A stretch of DNA of 64,000 bases from Lophium mytilinum (lineage: Eukaryota). Both the position numbers and the translations under genes were made by a program. Position 1 is the first letter of the stretch; each line of letters begins with the position of its first letter. The stretch is from the NCBI GenBank assembly GCA_010093605.1, contig MU004182.1, forward strand, positions 1,273,032-1,337,031. Reading direction: 5' to 3'. Shown here piece after piece: positions 34,752 to 41,332 of this stretch. Below the pieces are notes generated by a model, which was given only the letters and a program-made list of their open reading frames with translations, made no database searches and was not told the DNA's origin.

Positions 34752-36692
34752 ATGGCAACTCTTGAAGTCTACAACAATCCTGTCCCTCACCTCCATAACC
34801 TCAATGACCCATCGCTGGAGTTTGCCTACGACAGCGAGGAAGACCATGATGCCGGAATTTCTCCCAATCTGAGTACCTATACTTCCGTGCGGCAGTCCTT
34901 AGATATACAGCCTCAAGCACCAACTGGCGCTCCCGTCACGCAAGAAAGAACAGCGCACGATTCTGAAAAGGGTGATCTTAAGAAGGACGGCATTAGCCAC
35001 CCTACCACATCCAGCGAAGGCGTGGACGATAGGGCTGTTACAACAGGCGAATCGCCAGAAGAGGGCGCTGGATTAGCAGACCCAAATGTTATCTTTTGGG
35101 ATGGCCCAGAGGATCCAGAGAACCCTATGAATTGGTCCAATAGCTTCAAATGGGGAAACTTAGTGGTCATCCTATACATGGTCTTTGTTACGTACGTGAA
35201 TTTTCTTCTTAAGCTATAATTAAAGTTACTGGCGGAACTCCTTTTATACCTCAACTGCTCTCCCGGGACGGTTACTTGGTCGCCATTCAGGCTCAGCTAA
35301 CCTGATTAGACGTCTGGCCTCCACCATGTTGGCCCCTGGTGTGCCGGAAGTAATGGCTAAGCTTCACGAAACCTCCAGCCTTCTGGCGCCCTTTGTTGTA
35401 TCCGTCTTCTTCCTAGGCGAGGCATTTGGTCTACTTGTTCTGCTTCCTTTGAGCCAAATATACGGCCGCCGTTGGATTTATATTATCTCTAACATCCTTT
35501 TTATCATCTTTACTATTGCATGTGGAGTCTCTAGTAACTTTCATATGCTTATCGGCTTCCGGTTTCTTCAAGGGTCAGCTGGTTCTGCGTCTGTAACTCT
35601 TGCACATGGAACAATTACAGATTTAATGCCACTTAAAAAGAGAGTTTCGGTACAAGTCATCTTTGGGCTACTATATGGTGCTGGGTTGTTTCTTGGCCCC
35701 GTAACTGGTGGATTTCTTATACAAGCGAAAGGTTGGCAATGGGTCTTCTACTTGACTGCATCATCGGTAGGTTTAATCATCTTTTAGTCTCACGGCATAC
35801 TTATACGACTACGCAGACCGGGTTCATTCCCATTCTTGGATTCTTTCTCTTAAGTGAGACTTTCGCTCCGGTACTTCTGGAACGAAGAGCTGCGAAGCTT
35901 CGCGTAGATACTGGCAACCTGGACCTCCACTCACCCTCAACCATCTTACCGAACGAGGTTTTCCGCCTTAGCATCGTGCGGCCTATTAGACTGCTGCTAA
36001 CCTCGCCTATTGTCCTCTTTATGTCACTTTACGTAGCTTTGGCCTCTGGAATATTTTGCCTGCTCCTTTCAACTATGACTTTTGTCTTGAAAGAGAGATA
36101 TCACTTCTCCACCGGCATAGTTGGGCTCACCTATATTGGTGTAGGTGTCGGCCGAATTGTTGGCCAATTCTTTATCGGCGTCTTTAGCGCATATCTTCCC
36201 AACAAGGCTGAGGGCAAACTATTGAAGCTAGAACATTATATATCCATAACGCTAACGGTCCTTGGCGGTTTTTGGATGCCTATTGGACTCTTCATGTATG
36301 GCTGGGGAACAGAGAAAGTCATTCACTGGATCGTTCCACTCATTGGTACCGCATTTGTTGCGGCAGGGCTATGGCACAACTACGTATGTATCCCTAATTC
36401 GAGACCCTCTCTTTAGTTCCTTTAATAGATTTAGTTAACGTTCTTTCTATAGAAGACGGCCGTCAAATATATCATACGTGCGGTCAAGATAGAGGACAAC
36501 ACTTCTGCAACAACCGCTATAATAGTCTTGCGTCCCGTTATTGATGCTATACTTCCTCTCGCCGGTCTTGTGATATACGATAAGCTTGGTCTTGGCTGGG
36601 GGAACTCACTTCTAGGGTTTATTGCCCTTGCATTAATCCTCATTCCCGTCATCTTCAAGGTTTACGGAGAGCGGACAAATTCAAAGTACTAG
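34752..36692 (+). CDS. MFS multidrug transporter (DHA1-like), multi-exon
   Basis: WDGPEDPENPMNWS, PLSQIYGRR, LIGFRFLQG, ETFAPVLLERRA, LGLGWGNSLLGFIA. Confidence 0.9.
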
Positions 36693-36825
36693 ACTAGTAT
36701 GCTGTACTATCAGCCTTTGTGCCTCCAAAACTTCTACGACTATCAACGCTAAAGCGGCCCCAGTTGGCATCAAATGTTGAATTTGATCATTCCTTGCGAC
36801 AGTGGTGTGTCGTTAGACAGGCTGT

Positions 36826-37382
36826 CTAAACAGCTTGCTTGATCTCTTTCCGCTTCTTCCAGTCTCCGGATTGCCAGAAAGCAAGATCTTCCGAAGCCTC
36901 CTCTGCATGCCGCTTTGCCTTCTCCTTAGCATCGCGTTTCCAATCCCCGGATTGCCAGAAAGCAAGATCCTCCGAGGCCTCTTCCGCGCTTCGCTTCACC
37001 TTCTTATCCGCATCACGTTTCCAGTCCCCGGATTGCCAGAACGCAAGATCTTCCGAGGCCTGCTCTGCACTTCGTTTCGCGTTCTCCTCTGCGGCACGTT
37101 TCCAGTCCCCAGATTGCCAAAACGCGAGGTCTTCAGAAGCTTCTTCTGCATTTCGTTTGGCCTTCTTGTCCGCTTCGCGTTTCCAATCGCCGGATTGCCA
37201 GAAAGCAAGATCCTCGGAAGCCTCCTCGGGGCTACGCTCGGAGAGTGCATTCTATACAGCTTCAGCCTCCTATGATGTCTGATAGACACTGTTCGAGGAA
37301 TACATACCCTTTTACTAGGCTGCAGAGGTGTAGCCACGACTGAGGCAGCCAGAATCGAGATGGCGAGAATGCTGCACTTCAT
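36826..37382 (-). CDS. Kex2-processed repeat protein, putative dikaritin RiPP precursor (166 aa; exons 37308-37382 and 36826-37251)
   Basis: Signal peptide MKCSILAISILAASVVA, a 56-nt GTATGT...TAG intron, then five copies of EASEDLAFWQSGDWK(R/K) (one QASED) on a 27-aa period, separated by KR-bounded spacers. Confidence 0.92.
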
Positions 37383-39281: not shown

Positions 39282-39934
39282 TGACTTTCATCAACCGTAC
39301 GAAGGTTTCCGATGAGATGGAGGAGGTGTATCGCAGCGGACACAACAACGGGAATGTTTCGGGGTCATTCGGTGGAGCTGGACTAAATTGGGGCACGTTA
39401 GGTGAGACGCTCTACACGTCTCTACTACTTTTGCAACAACTAATCCGGGCTGAGGCAATAATAGTTTGCAAAACCCGATGCCAACCCCATATGAGCAATT
39501 GAGTCGGATCTGCTCTGATCCGTGGAGCCGGCGACGATCGCCTCTAAATATGGAAGTAATGCGATGTCCGCAGGAGGACATTGCTTCTGCATCTACAAGG
39601 GATATGTCGTCGGCACATCGGGATCGCGTAAGATGCCTAATCGCATCCTGGCACCTATGAGAGCCAGGTACTACGTATACAAGGACATGGAAGTATGCTT
39701 TAAGGTGGGTACCCAACAATGGCAAATTCCGGTCAGCCCTAAAGTCTTATATCTAGTTGTGGGTAACCAATAAGGACTGAGTATATAAGCTCACAAACTT
39801 GATGAAGTGGTTGTATAGTATCCCATCTCCTTGTTCTCACTATCTCGCAGCGGACATCACTCTTTCAATAATACCGCAAGTCCAATTCGGTCCGTCGAAA
39901 CACCCAACAAATCTCAACCTAAGGCCCCACTTCC

Positions 39935-41332
39935 ATGGTTTGGTCAACATCATGGCTGTTTCATGCCATCGTTACTGCATCCCTTGCCATCGGTACGGCA
40001 TGCTCACAACCATCCGGACATGAAGCAATCACCCGCGATGTGTGCATCATCGGAGGTGGTGCCTCAGGCACCTACGCAGCCGTACGACTGCAAGATTTGG
40101 GATTCAGCGTTACGTTGATTGAGCAGGACGACTCCCTTGGAGGAATGGTGAATACATACACCGATCCGGACGGCGACATCCCAATCGACTACGGGGTAGC
40201 AGACTACCGTTCAAACATCTCTGTAGTGGAGAGTTTTCTCAAGCGCCTCGATATCGCGTATGGTCCTTCGGAATCTACAGAAGGCACTACCGTGCGGGCA
40301 AACCTGGATACCGGCCAGAGAGTACTAAACTATACGTCTCCAAATGCTCTCGATGCTCTGACCCGATACGGCGAAGTGGCCGCCAAATACTCAGAACTGG
40401 AACATGGCTACTATCTTCCCGAACCCGTCCCGGAAGATCTTCTGATGCCATTTGGCCAGTTCATCGAGAAGTACAATGTTAGTGGTGTTATCCACGTGGT
40501 CTACCGCAGCTACGGGGATATCCTGCACCAGCCTACCCTTTACGTGATGAAATACTTCGGAGCCAACGCCATCTACAATCTCTTCAACGGTTTCATAGGC
40601 ACCAAGAGCCAGAATAACTCTGAAATCTACGACAAAGCTGCCAGAGTGCTAAGCGGAAACGTAATGCTCCATAGTCACGTGGTCTCAACGAATATGACTG
40701 CAGATGGGGATGGGTTAATCGAGATTAGAGTTCAGTCACCACTGGGTCTGGAGATCATACGAGCGAGGAAGCTAGTAATAACTATTCCACCTCTAATCTC
40801 TAACCTGGATGGGTTCGATCTTGGTAATTCGGAAAAAACCCTCTTTGGTCAGTTCCAATCAGTCGGCTATTACACATCTCTAGTCCAAAATACGGGACTT
40901 CCAGCCAATACAGCAGTCCTGAACACAAACAGCAACAACCTTTACGACCTGCCCACCCTCCCGAGCGTCTACCAGATCGTCCCTACCAAAGGCACTGGGC
41001 TGTATCAGGTGGAATACGGCAGCCCCTCCCCTCAGCCAATCGAGTCCGTCAAATCAGACATCCTCGCCTCTATACGCCGGCTAAAGACTACCGGAATCGC
41101 TAATGTCACGGAAGACGGCGAGCCTCAATTCGTGGCATTCGCTTCCCACACGCCATTCCAGCTGACAGTCCCCGCCGACGCCATCAAGTCCGGATTCTAT
41201 TCGAAGCTATACGCGCTACAAGGCCAGAAGCAGACGTTCTACACGGGAGCTGCATTCCACGCATATGACTCGTCGCTGCTGTGGCGGTTTACTGAGGATC
41301 TACTGCCGAAGATCTCAAGCGGCTTAAATTAG
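39935..41332 (+). CDS. Secreted flavin-dependent amine-oxidase-type oxidoreductase, intronless
   Basis: Signal peptide, RDVCIIGGGASGTYAAVRL, LGGMVNTY, GFYSKLYALQGQKQTFYTGAAF. Confidence 0.88.
   Translation: MVWSTSWLFHAIVTASLAIGTACSQPSGHEAITRDVCIIGGGASGTYAAVRLQDLGFSVTLIEQDDSLGGMVNTYTDPDGDIPIDYGVADYRSNISVVESFLKRLDIAYGPSESTEGTTVRANLDTGQRVLNYTSPNALDALTRYGEVAAKYSELEHGYYLPEPVPEDLLMPFGQFIEKYNVSGVIHVVYRSYGDILHQPTLYVMKYFGANAIYNLFNGFIGTKSQNNSEIYDKAARVLSGNVMLHSHVVSTNMTADGDGLIEIRVQSPLGLEIIRARKLVITIPPLISNLDGFDLGNSEKTLFGQFQSVGYYTSLVQNTGLPANTAVLNTNSNNLYDLPTLPSVYQIVPTKGTGLYQVEYGSPSPQPIESVKSDILASIRRLKTTGIANVTEDGEPQFVAFASHTPFQLTVPADAIKSGFYSKLYALQGQKQTFYTGAAFHAYDSSLLWRFTEDLLPKISSGLN

What the first reader, a model, noticed from the sequence alone, without database searches (positions are those of the whole stretch)
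34752..41332. Candidate new fungal RiPP (dikaritin-type) gene cluster: repeat precursor, DUF3328 oxidase, MFS transporter and flavin oxidoreductase
Seen: a two-exon secreted precursor (36826-37382, minus) whose repeat frame is absent from the ORF track. It lies next to a DUF3328 gene with two HxxHC motifs and between an MFS transporter and a secreted flavoenzyme. Established: a Kex2-repeat precursor plus UstYa/DUF3328 oxidase defines the ustiloxin, phomopsin, asperipin-2a and victorin pathways; the asperipin cluster is similarly compact (precursor, DUF3328, reductase, transporter). Inference: these four genes make and export a modified peptide. I do not recognise the core from any characterised RiPP.
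Basis: partly seen in the sequence, partly recalled or inferred. Interest (0 to 1): 0.93.

Follow-up and report, generated by a model that had tools for sequence, protein, structure and literature searches.

The report
Orphan fungal ribosomal-peptide (dikaritin-type) gene cluster
A wood-inhabiting fungus carries a compact four-gene set that most likely makes and exports a small modified peptide from a five-fold repeated, previously unannotated precursor; this kind of cluster is well known, but this peptide and one of its enzymes have not been described in this setting.

Summary
The window is Lophium mytilinum.

The four genes:
- **Precursor** (36826-37382, minus): two exons, 166 aa, with a signal-like N-terminus and five 27-aa repeats between KR sites. 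The 14-residue block ASEDLAFWQSGDWK is identical in all five repeats, yet its DNA carries 58 pairwise synonymous and 0 non-synonymous differences.
- **UstYa/DUF3328** (38287-39281, minus): has a membrane anchor and two HxxHC motifs.
- **MFS transporter** (34752-36692, plus).
- **Flavoenzyme** (39935-41332, plus): has a signal-like start and resembles beta-cyclopiazonate dehydrogenase.

In Claussenomyces, a fungus of another class, the best UstYa and flavoenzyme homologues carry consecutive locus tags.

No relative of the precursor was found: two protein searches gave only weak repeat-driven hits, one metagenome scan with the precursor found none, and no paper in the library contains the core.

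The kind is common. A survey found 1758 of 7878 Kex2-repeat proteins with DUF3328 genes nearby (PMC7329392). So this is a new member of a known kind.

Two things stand out: a Tyr-free, Trp-rich core and the CpaO-like partner enzyme. Precursor expression, the intron and the product remain untested. Interest 0.45.

The parts
34752..36692 (+). MFS transporter gene. Model exons are 34752-35191, 35310-35766, 35817-36383 and 36453-36692, giving 567 aa.
   Evidence: Pfam MFS_1 scores E 5.4e-29 and 101.6 bits on exon 2. Frame-preserving GT..AG introns were found. The third intron, 36384-36452, is bridged by a contig of run X1 (joint 36383->36453, GT..AG). The spliced model has one terminal stop and 11 hydrophobic segments by a crude Kyte-Doolittle scan.
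36826..37382 (-). Precursor gene, a Kex2-processed repeat protein of 166 aa. Exon 1 is 37382-37308 (signal-like peptide ending in KR), the intron is 37307-37252, and exon 2 is 37251-36826 including the stop.
   Evidence: Sequence and translation were read. The hydrophobic stretch ILAISILAASVV has a mean Kyte-Doolittle value of 2.78 at residues 5-16. The protein has 10 KR sites, 0 Tyr and 10 Trp. It is not found in the protein collection, itself included.
36838..37242 (-). Five tandem 81-nt (27-aa) repeat units. Each encodes xKRxAEEASED-LAFWQSGDW-KR plus an acidic/basic spacer. The predicted core is LAFWQSGDW, between ED and KR.
   Evidence: TRF reports period 81 and score 434. In the 14-codon block there are 0 non-synonymous against 58 synonymous pairwise differences, and variable columns fall 0, 0 and 11 by codon position. 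ED and KR flanks are described for UstA in PMC6514808.
37471..37478 (-). TATAAAAG, a TATA-like box 89-96 nt upstream of the precursor ATG.
   Evidence: Read directly from the sequence. No statistical test was made.
38287..39281 (-). UstYa/DUF3328 gene. Model exons are 39281-39019, 38975-38845, 38784-38663 and 38595-38287 including the stop. The protein is 274 aa, with a membrane anchor at residues 52-70 and HxxHC motifs at 167 and 197.
   Evidence: PF11807 matches three exons at E 6.5e-20, 1.5e-06 and 0.0012. Exons 2-4 join as in the deposited model P0001. Exon 1 is supported by a tblastn match of P0002 residues 1-86 (E 5.5e-09) and by a contig of X1 at 39067-39301. The full model is 59% identical to P0002 (156 of 266 residues).
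39935..41332 (+). FAD-dependent oxidoreductase of the beta-cyclopiazonate dehydrogenase (CpaO) type. It is a single exon of 465 aa with a signal-like N-terminus.
   Evidence: Pfam NAD_binding_8 scores 5.4e-13 and Amino_oxidase 27.6 bits against a cut-off of 19.8. PDB 9vex_A matches at E 2.9e-76, residues 30-462 against 3-430 of the chain. The most hydrophobic 12-residue window of the whole protein is LFHAIVTASLAI at residues 8-19. X1 contigs lie at 39775-40082 and 40465-40711.

Best explanation
This is a functional but uncharacterised dikaritin-type RiPP gene cluster of Lophium mytilinum.

Proposed mechanism, with shown and inferred steps marked:
1. The 166-aa precursor enters the secretory pathway through its N-terminal signal. 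The sequence is shown; targeting is inferred.
2. Golgi Kex2 cuts after the KR pairs and releases five copies of a roughly 17-residue peptide, xAEEASEDLAFWQSGDW, plus short spacers. The sites are shown; cleavage is inferred.
3. The membrane-anchored, lumen-facing UstYa oxidase modifies the core, most likely LAFWQSGDW, which sits between the conserved ED and KR flanks as the core does in UstA. It acts by oxidative cross-linking or desaturation (inferred from family).
4. The signal-bearing CpaO-like flavoenzyme carries out a further two-electron oxidation (inferred). Its closest solved relative acts on an indole alkaloid (a fact I recall) and the core has two Trp, so a Trp side chain is the likeliest target. 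Oxidation of the N-terminal amine is the alternative.
5. Unknown peptidases trim the acidic N-terminal part, and the MFS protein exports the product (inferred).
For: - Repeat architecture with a signal-like start and 10 KR sites.
- Peptide-level purifying selection on the repeat: 0 non-synonymous against 58 synonymous pairwise differences in 14 codons, with spacer pN 0.29. Variable columns fall 0, 0 and 11 by codon position.
- ED and KR flanks as described for UstA (PMC6514808).
- The next gene upstream on the same strand, about 900 bp away, is a UstYa homologue: PF11807 at 72.4 bits against a cut-off of 25. It has a membrane anchor and two HxxHC motifs, and both motifs are present in 4 of 4 homologues fetched.
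- DUF3328 genes peak at the position next to KEP genes in a survey of 1461 genomes (PMC7329392).
- The UstYa and flavoenzyme genes are neighbours here. Their best non-self homologues are Claussenomyces sp. M1818_001751 (74% on exon 4, 59% full length) and M1818_001750 (70%). These are consecutive tags, and the longest-contig field reads the same (929239) for both.
- The flavoenzymes of Lophium, Mytilinidion, Claussenomyces and Aspergillus wentii form an exclusive clade (support 1.0) among 120 homologues.
- None of the 36 long ORFs scanned outside the four cluster genes is an NRPS or PKS; the cluster's own ORFs, scanned, are not either. The cluster is bounded by an NLR gene and HET genes.
- Contigs of run X1, one of them spliced at an MFS intron, cover the MFS gene, UstYa exon 1 and the flavoenzyme.
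Against: - No product is known.
- The precursor intron is inferred only.
- No homologous precursor was found anywhere, so its conservation together with the enzymes is unshown. Whether Claussenomyces has a precursor could not be checked.
- The core has no Tyr. Tyr is the residue cross-linked in ustiloxin, phomopsin, asperipin-2a and the epichloecyclins (PMC9233826, PMC6514808).
- From recall, UstYa proteins also act in non-ribosomal pathways such as cyclochlorotine.
- That X1 is RNA is a guess by the tool, supported only by one spliced contig.
- Gene adjacency in Claussenomyces is inferred from locus-tag numbers, not seen in DNA.
Confidence: 0.7

Rival explanations
1. The repeat protein is an unmodified secreted Kex2-processed peptide, either an alpha-factor-like pheromone or another signalling or effector peptide. 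Its neighbours are unrelated to it.
For: - The architecture is that of alpha-factor precursors: signal, repeats and KR sites (PMC10569646).
- The only database hit below 1e-6 is P0005 (E 3.4e-10). Its repeats, LCLFHGQGCWKR, look like Leotiomycete alpha-factors such as CKYVGQGCW.
- Both repeats share F-x3-G-x-W-KR-[DE]-A.
- The nearest ESM Atlas cluster is MF_alpha, at 0.79, which the tool rates as a lead only.
- 78% of KEPs have no DUF3328 gene nearby (PMC7329392).
Against: - The GQ or PG turn dipeptide, which the paper reports in most mature repeats, is absent (the repeat has QSG).
- The STE13 XA/XP runs said to precede the mature repeats are also absent (SAEEASED).
- The two Cys of the cited pheromones are missing.
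- Single-unit similarity to P0005 is not significant (E 0.1-0.2). The total rests on repetition.
- Pfam MF_alpha does not match.
- In the same survey, almost all pheromone-annotated KEPs, with three exceptions, lack DUF3328 neighbours. Here the UstYa gene is the next gene.
Confidence: 0.13
2. The UstYa and CpaO-like enzymes are a conserved pair that tailors a non-ribosomal small molecule, for example an indole alkaloid made elsewhere in the genome. The repeat gene lies beside them by chance.
For: - The pair, not the precursor, is what is seen conserved in Claussenomyces.
- CpaO's known substrate is an indole tetramate, and UstYa proteins occur in NRPS pathways (both recalled).
- A P450, an mpaB-like oxygenase and an FAD monooxygenase lie 6-14 kb to the left.
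Against: - The 36 long ORFs scanned across the 64-kb window outside the four cluster genes hold no NRPS, PKS, DMATS or terpene cyclase domain.
- An NLR gene separates the oxygenase group from this cluster.
- The precursor is under strong selection and lies between the transporter and the UstYa gene.
Confidence: 0.1
3. The precursor is not a gene. It is a non-coding minisatellite with an accidental open frame.
For: - It is not annotated in the deposited proteome.
- Several frames are open across the array.
- The intron has no RNA support.
Against: - Repeat copies differ at 11 nucleotide columns in the 14-codon core, all of them third positions and all synonymous.
- An in-frame signal-peptide exon with a GTATGT..AG intron sits upstream, and a TATA-like box lies 89-96 nt upstream of the ATG.
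- KR sites recur at fixed positions in each unit.
Confidence: 0.04

Closest known systems
Asperipin-2a cluster of Aspergillus flavus (aprA precursor, aprY UstYa homologue, aprT transporter, aprR reductase)
   Same: Both are compact four-gene layouts: a Kex2-repeat precursor, a single UstYa homologue, a transporter and one redox enzyme. Neither has a tyrosinase or a cluster transcription factor (PMC6514808 and PMC10512285, passages).
   Different: The asperipin core FYYTGY is rich in Tyr and is cross-linked through Tyr ethers. Here the core LAFWQSGDW has no Tyr. AprR is described as an isoflavone reductase, while the enzyme here is a CpaO-type FAD oxidoreductase.
Ustiloxin cluster (UstA, UstYa, UstYb, UstQ and others)
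   Same: Both have a signal peptide, repeated cores flanked by ED and KR, and UstYa-family oxidases (PMC6514808). The Pfam family PF11807 is named after UstYa.
   Different: The ustiloxin cluster has about 15 genes, including a tyrosinase, two UstYa paralogues, a methyltransferase, class B flavin monooxygenases and a regulator. Its core is the 4-aa YAIG, repeated 16 times. Here there is one UstYa, five repeats, a core of about 9 aa and a different flavoenzyme class.
Victorin (Cochliobolus victoriae)
   Same: It is a dikaritin whose macrocycle does not use Tyr (Phe and Leu side chains; PMC9233826). From recall, it has an amine oxidase as a tailoring enzyme.
   Different: From recall, the core is GLKLAF, the oxidase is copper-dependent and the peptide is chlorinated. 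The primary paper (PMC7533671) is not held, so I did not read it.
Alpha-factor-type mating pheromone precursors (ppg1/MF-alpha)
   Same: Both have a signal peptide and tandem repeats ending in KR. There is a weak repeat-driven match to P0005 and a sub-threshold MF_alpha lead in the ESM Atlas.
   Different: The precursor here has no GQ or PG turn, no STE13 dipeptide run, no Cys pair and no Pfam MF_alpha match. A UstYa gene lies next to it.
Beta-cyclopiazonate dehydrogenase (CpaO; PDB 9vex, 9kp8)
   Same: The match runs the full length (E 2.9e-76, residues 30-462 against 3-430). The N-terminal 29 residues lie outside the crystallised chain.
   Different: The enzyme here belongs to a separate four-member clade (support 1.0, 62-88% identity within it, 54% or less to the rest). 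It sits beside a UstYa gene and a peptide precursor, not in an indole-tetramate cluster. No paper in the library pairs UstYa or DUF3328 with cyclopiazonate dehydrogenase.

Membership tests
Dikaritin-type RiPP cluster (KEP precursor cyclised by a UstYa homologue; definition in PMC10512285) | The precursor has an N-terminal ER signal peptide. | tested here: met
   The N-terminus is MKCSILAISILAASVVA. Its best 12-residue Kyte-Doolittle window scores 2.78 at residues 5-16. This is hydropathy and inspection only, because no signal-peptide predictor was available.
Dikaritin-type RiPP cluster (KEP precursor cyclised by a UstYa homologue; definition in PMC10512285) | Tandem repeats hold the core and are separated by Kex2 (KR) sites. 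| tested here: met
   There are five 27-aa units with KR on both sides of each core-bearing peptide. The survey average is a 5-fold repeat (PMC10512285).
Dikaritin-type RiPP cluster (KEP precursor cyclised by a UstYa homologue; definition in PMC10512285) | A UstYa/DUF3328 gene lies close to the precursor gene. | tested here: met
   The UstYa stop at 38287 lies 905 bp from the precursor ATG at 37382. PF11807 scores 72.4 bits. tblastn finds only one UstYa locus in the window.
Dikaritin-type RiPP cluster (KEP precursor cyclised by a UstYa homologue; definition in PMC10512285) | A modified (cyclised) peptide is produced and depends on the UstYa gene. | not testable with these tools
   This needs genetics and LC-MS/MS.
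Dikaritin-type RiPP cluster (KEP precursor cyclised by a UstYa homologue; definition in PMC10512285) | The core contains Tyr for an ether cross-link, as in ustiloxin, phomopsin, asperipin-2a and epichloecyclin. | tested here: not met
   The precursor has 0 Tyr in 166 residues. This is not a strict criterion. Victorin cyclises through Phe and Leu (PMC9233826), and 34% of repeats in DUF3328-linked KEPs lack Tyr (PMC7329392).
UstYa family (PF11807) | The Pfam profile matches above the gathering score. | tested here: met
   Exon 4 scores 72.4 bits and exon 3 scores 28.7 bits against a cut-off of 25. Exon 2 scores 19.2 bits, below the cut-off. Together they cover profile positions 50-220 of 220.
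UstYa family (PF11807) | Two HxxHC motifs and an N-terminal membrane anchor. That these are hallmarks is recalled, not taken from a paper read here. | tested here: met
   HQMHC lies at residue 167 and HVDHC at 197. The hydrophobic segment at residues 52-70 has a mean Kyte-Doolittle value of 2.33. Both motifs are present in P0001-P0004.
Alpha-factor-type mating pheromone precursor (criteria in PMC10569646) | STE13 sites (XA/XP runs) lie directly before each mature repeat. | tested here: not met
   The residues before the invariant block are xAEEASED, and only the first dipeptide is XA.
Alpha-factor-type mating pheromone precursor (criteria in PMC10569646) | The mature repeat contains a GQ or PG turn dipeptide. 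| tested here: not met
   The repeat reads FWQSGDW, with neither GQ nor PG. Pfam MF_alpha and MF_alpha_N are not among the matches at E up to 0.01.
Beta-cyclopiazonate dehydrogenase-like FAD oxidoreductases | Full-length similarity to the solved enzyme, with an FAD-binding Rossmann motif. | tested here: met
   9vex_A matches at E 2.9e-76 over residues 30-462. NAD_binding_8 scores 5.4e-13 at residues 42-108.
Beta-cyclopiazonate dehydrogenase-like FAD oxidoreductases | Activity on beta-cyclopiazonic acid. | not testable with these tools
   Its separate clade and different gene context argue for another substrate.
Major facilitator superfamily | An MFS_1 profile match and about 12 membrane helices. 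| tested here: met
   MFS_1 scores 101.6 bits against a cut-off of 33.4. A crude scan of the 567-aa model finds 11 hydrophobic segments.

The most novel reading that the evidence does not exclude
The cluster makes a Tyr-free, Trp-based dikaritin. Its ring or rings would be formed by chemistry not yet described for this class: a UstYa oxidase working with a secreted CpaO-type flavin dehydrogenase on a Trp indole of LAFWQSGDW. The UstYa/CpaO-like module would be a mobile two-enzyme unit, shared patchily between Dothideomycetes, Leotiomycetes and Eurotiomycetes. The precursor's faint likeness to alpha-factor pheromones (F-x3-G-x-W-KR) would then be a trace of dikaritin precursors arising from pheromone genes, as Umemura (2020) and Ford et al. 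(2022) proposed.
Probability: 0.25. Interest if true: 0.7.

Novelty: new member of a known kind. Interest (0 to 1): 0.45.

Why it matters
By 2022 only five dikaritins had been characterised, against 1758 predicted loci that pair a Kex2-repeat protein with a DUF3328 gene (PMC10512285, PMC7329392). What UstYa enzymes do on cores without tyrosine is largely unknown.

This locus is a small, self-contained test case:
- It has four genes and a sharply defined invariant core with two Trp.
- Its flavoenzyme type is not reported with UstYa in any paper I could search.

Expressing it could reveal a new peptide cross-link.

The case also shows that standard annotation missed the precursor entirely and truncated the UstYa gene. 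Surveys based on protein sets therefore undercount such clusters.

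Tried and rejected
**RNA support for the precursor**
- One run was listed (X1, kind guessed as RNA, kept as contigs, share 0.23), and no holder on record as RNA was listed.
- Laid on 34000-42000, 9 contigs matched. None lay on 36937-38805, which includes the precursor and UstYa exons 2-4. The depth is about 3, so this says nothing about expression.

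**Relatives of the precursor**
- The word-indexed search found none at E 0.01 or better among 8000 scored candidates of 77-247 aa.
- Exhaustive phmmer against 1.84 billion representatives gave 3 hits at E 0.001 or better and none at 1e-10 or better. I fetched two: P0005 is a pheromone-like repeat protein and P0007 a repeat protein; I did not fetch P0006.
- The metagenome scan with the precursor matched 94 pattern stretches, none confirmed.
- The metagenome scan with the UstYa alignment matched 498 stretches, none confirmed.
- The ESM Atlas gave only sub-threshold leads.

**Things that could not be done**
- The whole genome is not held, so a second KEP or ppg1 gene and other UstYa genes could not be looked for.
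- Fungal genomes of Claussenomyces, Mytilinidion and A. wentii are in no collection I can scan. Synteny therefore rests on locus tags.

**Literature**
- Lophium does not occur in the 3 held supplementary files of PMC7329392. The files may be cut.
- No paper in the library holds the core motif.
- No paper holds UstYa or DUF3328 together with cyclopiazonate dehydrogenase.
- Nie et al. 2025 (asperigimycins; PMC13401907) and Kessler et al. 2020 (victorin; PMC7533671) are not held. I could not check whether Trp-linked UstYa chemistry or a similar flavoenzyme is already described there.

**Other**
- No solved structure matches UstYa (0 hits at E 1 or better).
- I considered a complex prediction for UstYa with the precursor. 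I did not run it, because enzyme-substrate pairs are poorly served by that test.

Full report
**Source organism.** The last exon of the DUF3328 gene is 100% identical to protein BU16DRAFT_451673 of Lophium mytilinum. This species is a Dothideomycete of the order Mytilinidiales. No whole genome is held for the window.

On the minus strand an ATG at 37382 opens a 25-codon exon, MKCSILAISILAASVVATPLQPSKR. A 56-nt GTATGT..TATAG intron follows at 37307-37252. The second exon is a 141-codon open frame without any Met, ending at 36826. The spliced protein has 166 residues: 10 KR sites, 10 Trp, 5 Phe and no Tyr. Tandem Repeats Finder reports an 81-nt period with 4.6 copies, 78% matches, no indels and score 434.

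**The repeat is a translated, selected frame.**
- The five 27-residue units read xKRxAEEASEDLAFWQSGDWKR plus a variable charged spacer.
- In the 14-codon block ASEDLAFWQSGDWK, the five copies differ at 11 nucleotide columns. All 11 are third codon positions.
- Pairwise, that block has 58 synonymous and 0 non-synonymous differences (pS 0.73, pN 0). The 13 spacer codons have pN 0.29.
- The copies are therefore old, and the peptide sequence is what selection has held constant.
- Of the other five frames, only the antisense frame that shares wobble positions is nearly as conserved (15 of 26 columns against 16 of 26). It has no Met, signal or dibasic sites.
- The selected frame has no start codon, and an in-frame signal-like exon lies 56 nt upstream. 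The intron is therefore a necessary inference, but it has not been seen in RNA.
- A TATAAAAG box lies 89-96 nt upstream of the ATG.

**The UstYa gene.**
- PF11807 matches three consecutive exons at E 6.5e-20, 1.5e-06 and 0.0012, covering profile positions 50-220 of 220.
- My four-exon model is 39281-39019, 38975-38845, 38784-38663 and 38595-38287. It gives 274 residues with a hydrophobic anchor at 52-70 and HxxHC motifs at 167 and 197.
- The deposited model (P0001, 206 aa) uses the same last two junctions. However, it starts inside my first intron and lacks the anchor.
- My first exon is supported in two ways. Residues 1-86 of the Claussenomyces homologue P0002 match it (tblastn E 5.5e-09; 59% identity over the whole protein). 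A contig of run X1 also covers 39067-39301.
- tblastn finds only one UstYa locus in the window.

**The transporter and the flavoenzyme.**
- The MFS gene (34752-36692) matches MFS_1 at 101.6 bits. Its four-exon model has 567 residues and 11 hydrophobic segments by a crude hydropathy scan. Its third intron is bridged by an X1 contig (36383->36453, GT..AG).
- The flavoenzyme (39935-41332) is a single exon of 465 residues.
- It matches beta-cyclopiazonate dehydrogenase structures 9vex and 9kp8 at E about 3e-76, over residues 30-462.
- The 29 residues left over contain the most hydrophobic stretch of the protein. This fits a signal peptide and the same compartment as Kex2 and the UstYa lumenal domain. 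That localisation is inferred.

**Cluster boundaries.**
- To the left lies an NLR gene (SesA, NACHT, DUF7791; 31003-33879).
- To the right lie two HET-domain genes (42247-44883 and 45196-46839).
- None of the 36 long ORFs scanned outside the four cluster genes carries an NRPS, PKS or other backbone-enzyme domain. The cluster's own ORFs, scanned, carry none either.

**Relatives elsewhere.**
- The best non-self hit of the UstYa exon is Claussenomyces sp. TS43310 M1818_001751, at 74% identity. Claussenomyces is a Leotiomycete.
- The best hit of the flavoenzyme is M1818_001750, at 70% identity over 100% of the query. The tags are consecutive and both rows give the same longest-contig length, 929239.
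- I read this as the two genes being neighbours in a second class of fungi. It is an inference from tags, because I could not fetch that DNA.
- Next come a Mytilinidion resinicola fragment (88% over 63% of the query) and Aspergillus wentii MW887_000848 (62%). Everything else is 54% or lower.
- In a FastTree of all 120 listed homologues, no rows dropped, these four form an exclusive clade with support 1.0.
- The precursor has no detectable relative. The evidence is listed under Tried and rejected.

**Transcription.** The one run found holds 23% of the sampled words, and its kind is a guess by the tool. Its contigs lie on MFS exons, UstYa exon 1, the flavoenzyme and two upstream stretches, and one contig is spliced. 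This weakly supports transcription of three of the four genes.

**Comparison with what is known.**
- Dikaritins are defined as RiPPs made from Kex2-processed repeat proteins and cyclised by UstYa homologues. Five were known by 2022, and precursors carry five repeats on average (PMC10512285, passages).
- UstA cores are flanked by conserved ED and KR (PMC6514808, passages). Here ED and KR bracket LAFWQSGDW, which I take as the core.
- The asperipin-2a cluster has the same four-part layout, but its redox enzyme is an isoflavone reductase.
- Such loci are common. In a survey, 1758 of 7878 KEPs have DUF3328 genes within 15 genes, peaking at the adjacent position, and 65.6% of their repeats contain Tyr (PMC7329392, passages). 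Lophium is not in that survey's held supplements.

**The pheromone rival.** The only hit better than 1e-6 is P0005. Its LCLFHGQGCWKR repeats resemble the Leotiomycete alpha-factors quoted in PMC10569646. The match depends on repetition, since single units score E 0.1-0.2. The criteria given in that paper, STE13 XA/XP runs and a GQ or PG dipeptide, are not met here. I give this rival 0.13.

**Mechanism.**
- Shown: the sequences, motifs, selection pattern, neighbourhood and family memberships.
- Inferred: secretory targeting, Kex2 cleavage into five peptides of about 17 residues, oxidative modification by UstYa, a further flavin-dependent oxidation, trimming of the acidic N-terminal part, and MFS export.
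- For the flavin step, I favour a Trp indole as target, because I recall CpaO's substrate as an indole alkaloid and the core has two Trp.
- No paper in the searchable library links UstYa or DUF3328 with cyclopiazonate dehydrogenase or holds the core motif.
- The asperigimycin and victorin primary papers are not held. Prior description of similar chemistry therefore cannot be excluded.

**Verdict.** This is a real, orphan, compact dikaritin-type cluster: a new member of a known and numerous kind. Its two unusual features are a Tyr-free Trp-rich core and a co-conserved CpaO-like flavoenzyme. Confidence in the RiPP reading is 0.7 and interest is 0.45.

Noticed in passing
window 38976-39034 and 39019-39281: The deposited protein model of the UstYa gene (P0001, 206 aa) starts at a Met inside what I read as intron 1. 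It lacks the exon that encodes the membrane anchor. The Claussenomyces homologue and an X1 contig support the longer model.
   Followed up: yes
window 31003-33879 (-): An NLR-type gene with SesA, NACHT/NPHP3_N and DUF7791 domains lies directly left of the cluster.
   Followed up: partly
window 42247-44883 (-) and 45196-46839 (-): Two HET (heterokaryon incompatibility) domain genes lie in tandem directly right of the cluster. The cluster therefore sits in a region rich in non-self-recognition genes.
   Followed up: partly
window 18849-28476: A group of oxidative enzymes lies here: a cupin (18849-19388), an FAD monooxygenase (20268-21982), an mpaB-like oxygenase (22844-23884) and a cytochrome P450 (27580-28476). 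They may form a separate tailoring set, but no backbone gene was seen in the window.
   Followed up: no
P0005 (499 aa): This is a long Kex2-repeat protein with about 14 copies of LCLFHGQGCWKR. It looks like an alpha-factor pheromone precursor and shares F-x3-G-x-W-KR with the Lophium repeat. Its organism could not be looked up.
   Followed up: partly
window 39302-39934: This is the divergent intergenic region between the UstYa and flavoenzyme genes. An X1 contig lies at 39561-39746, outside both coding regions. It may be an untranslated region or DNA carried in the run.
   Followed up: no
window 8854-13529 and 51464-55766: Housekeeping-type genes lie here: prenylcysteine lyase, a synoviolin/Hrd1-like RING E3 ligase, a TRPY1/YVC1 channel and a D-serine dehydratase-like protein. 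The window is ordinary chromosomal DNA.
   Followed up: no
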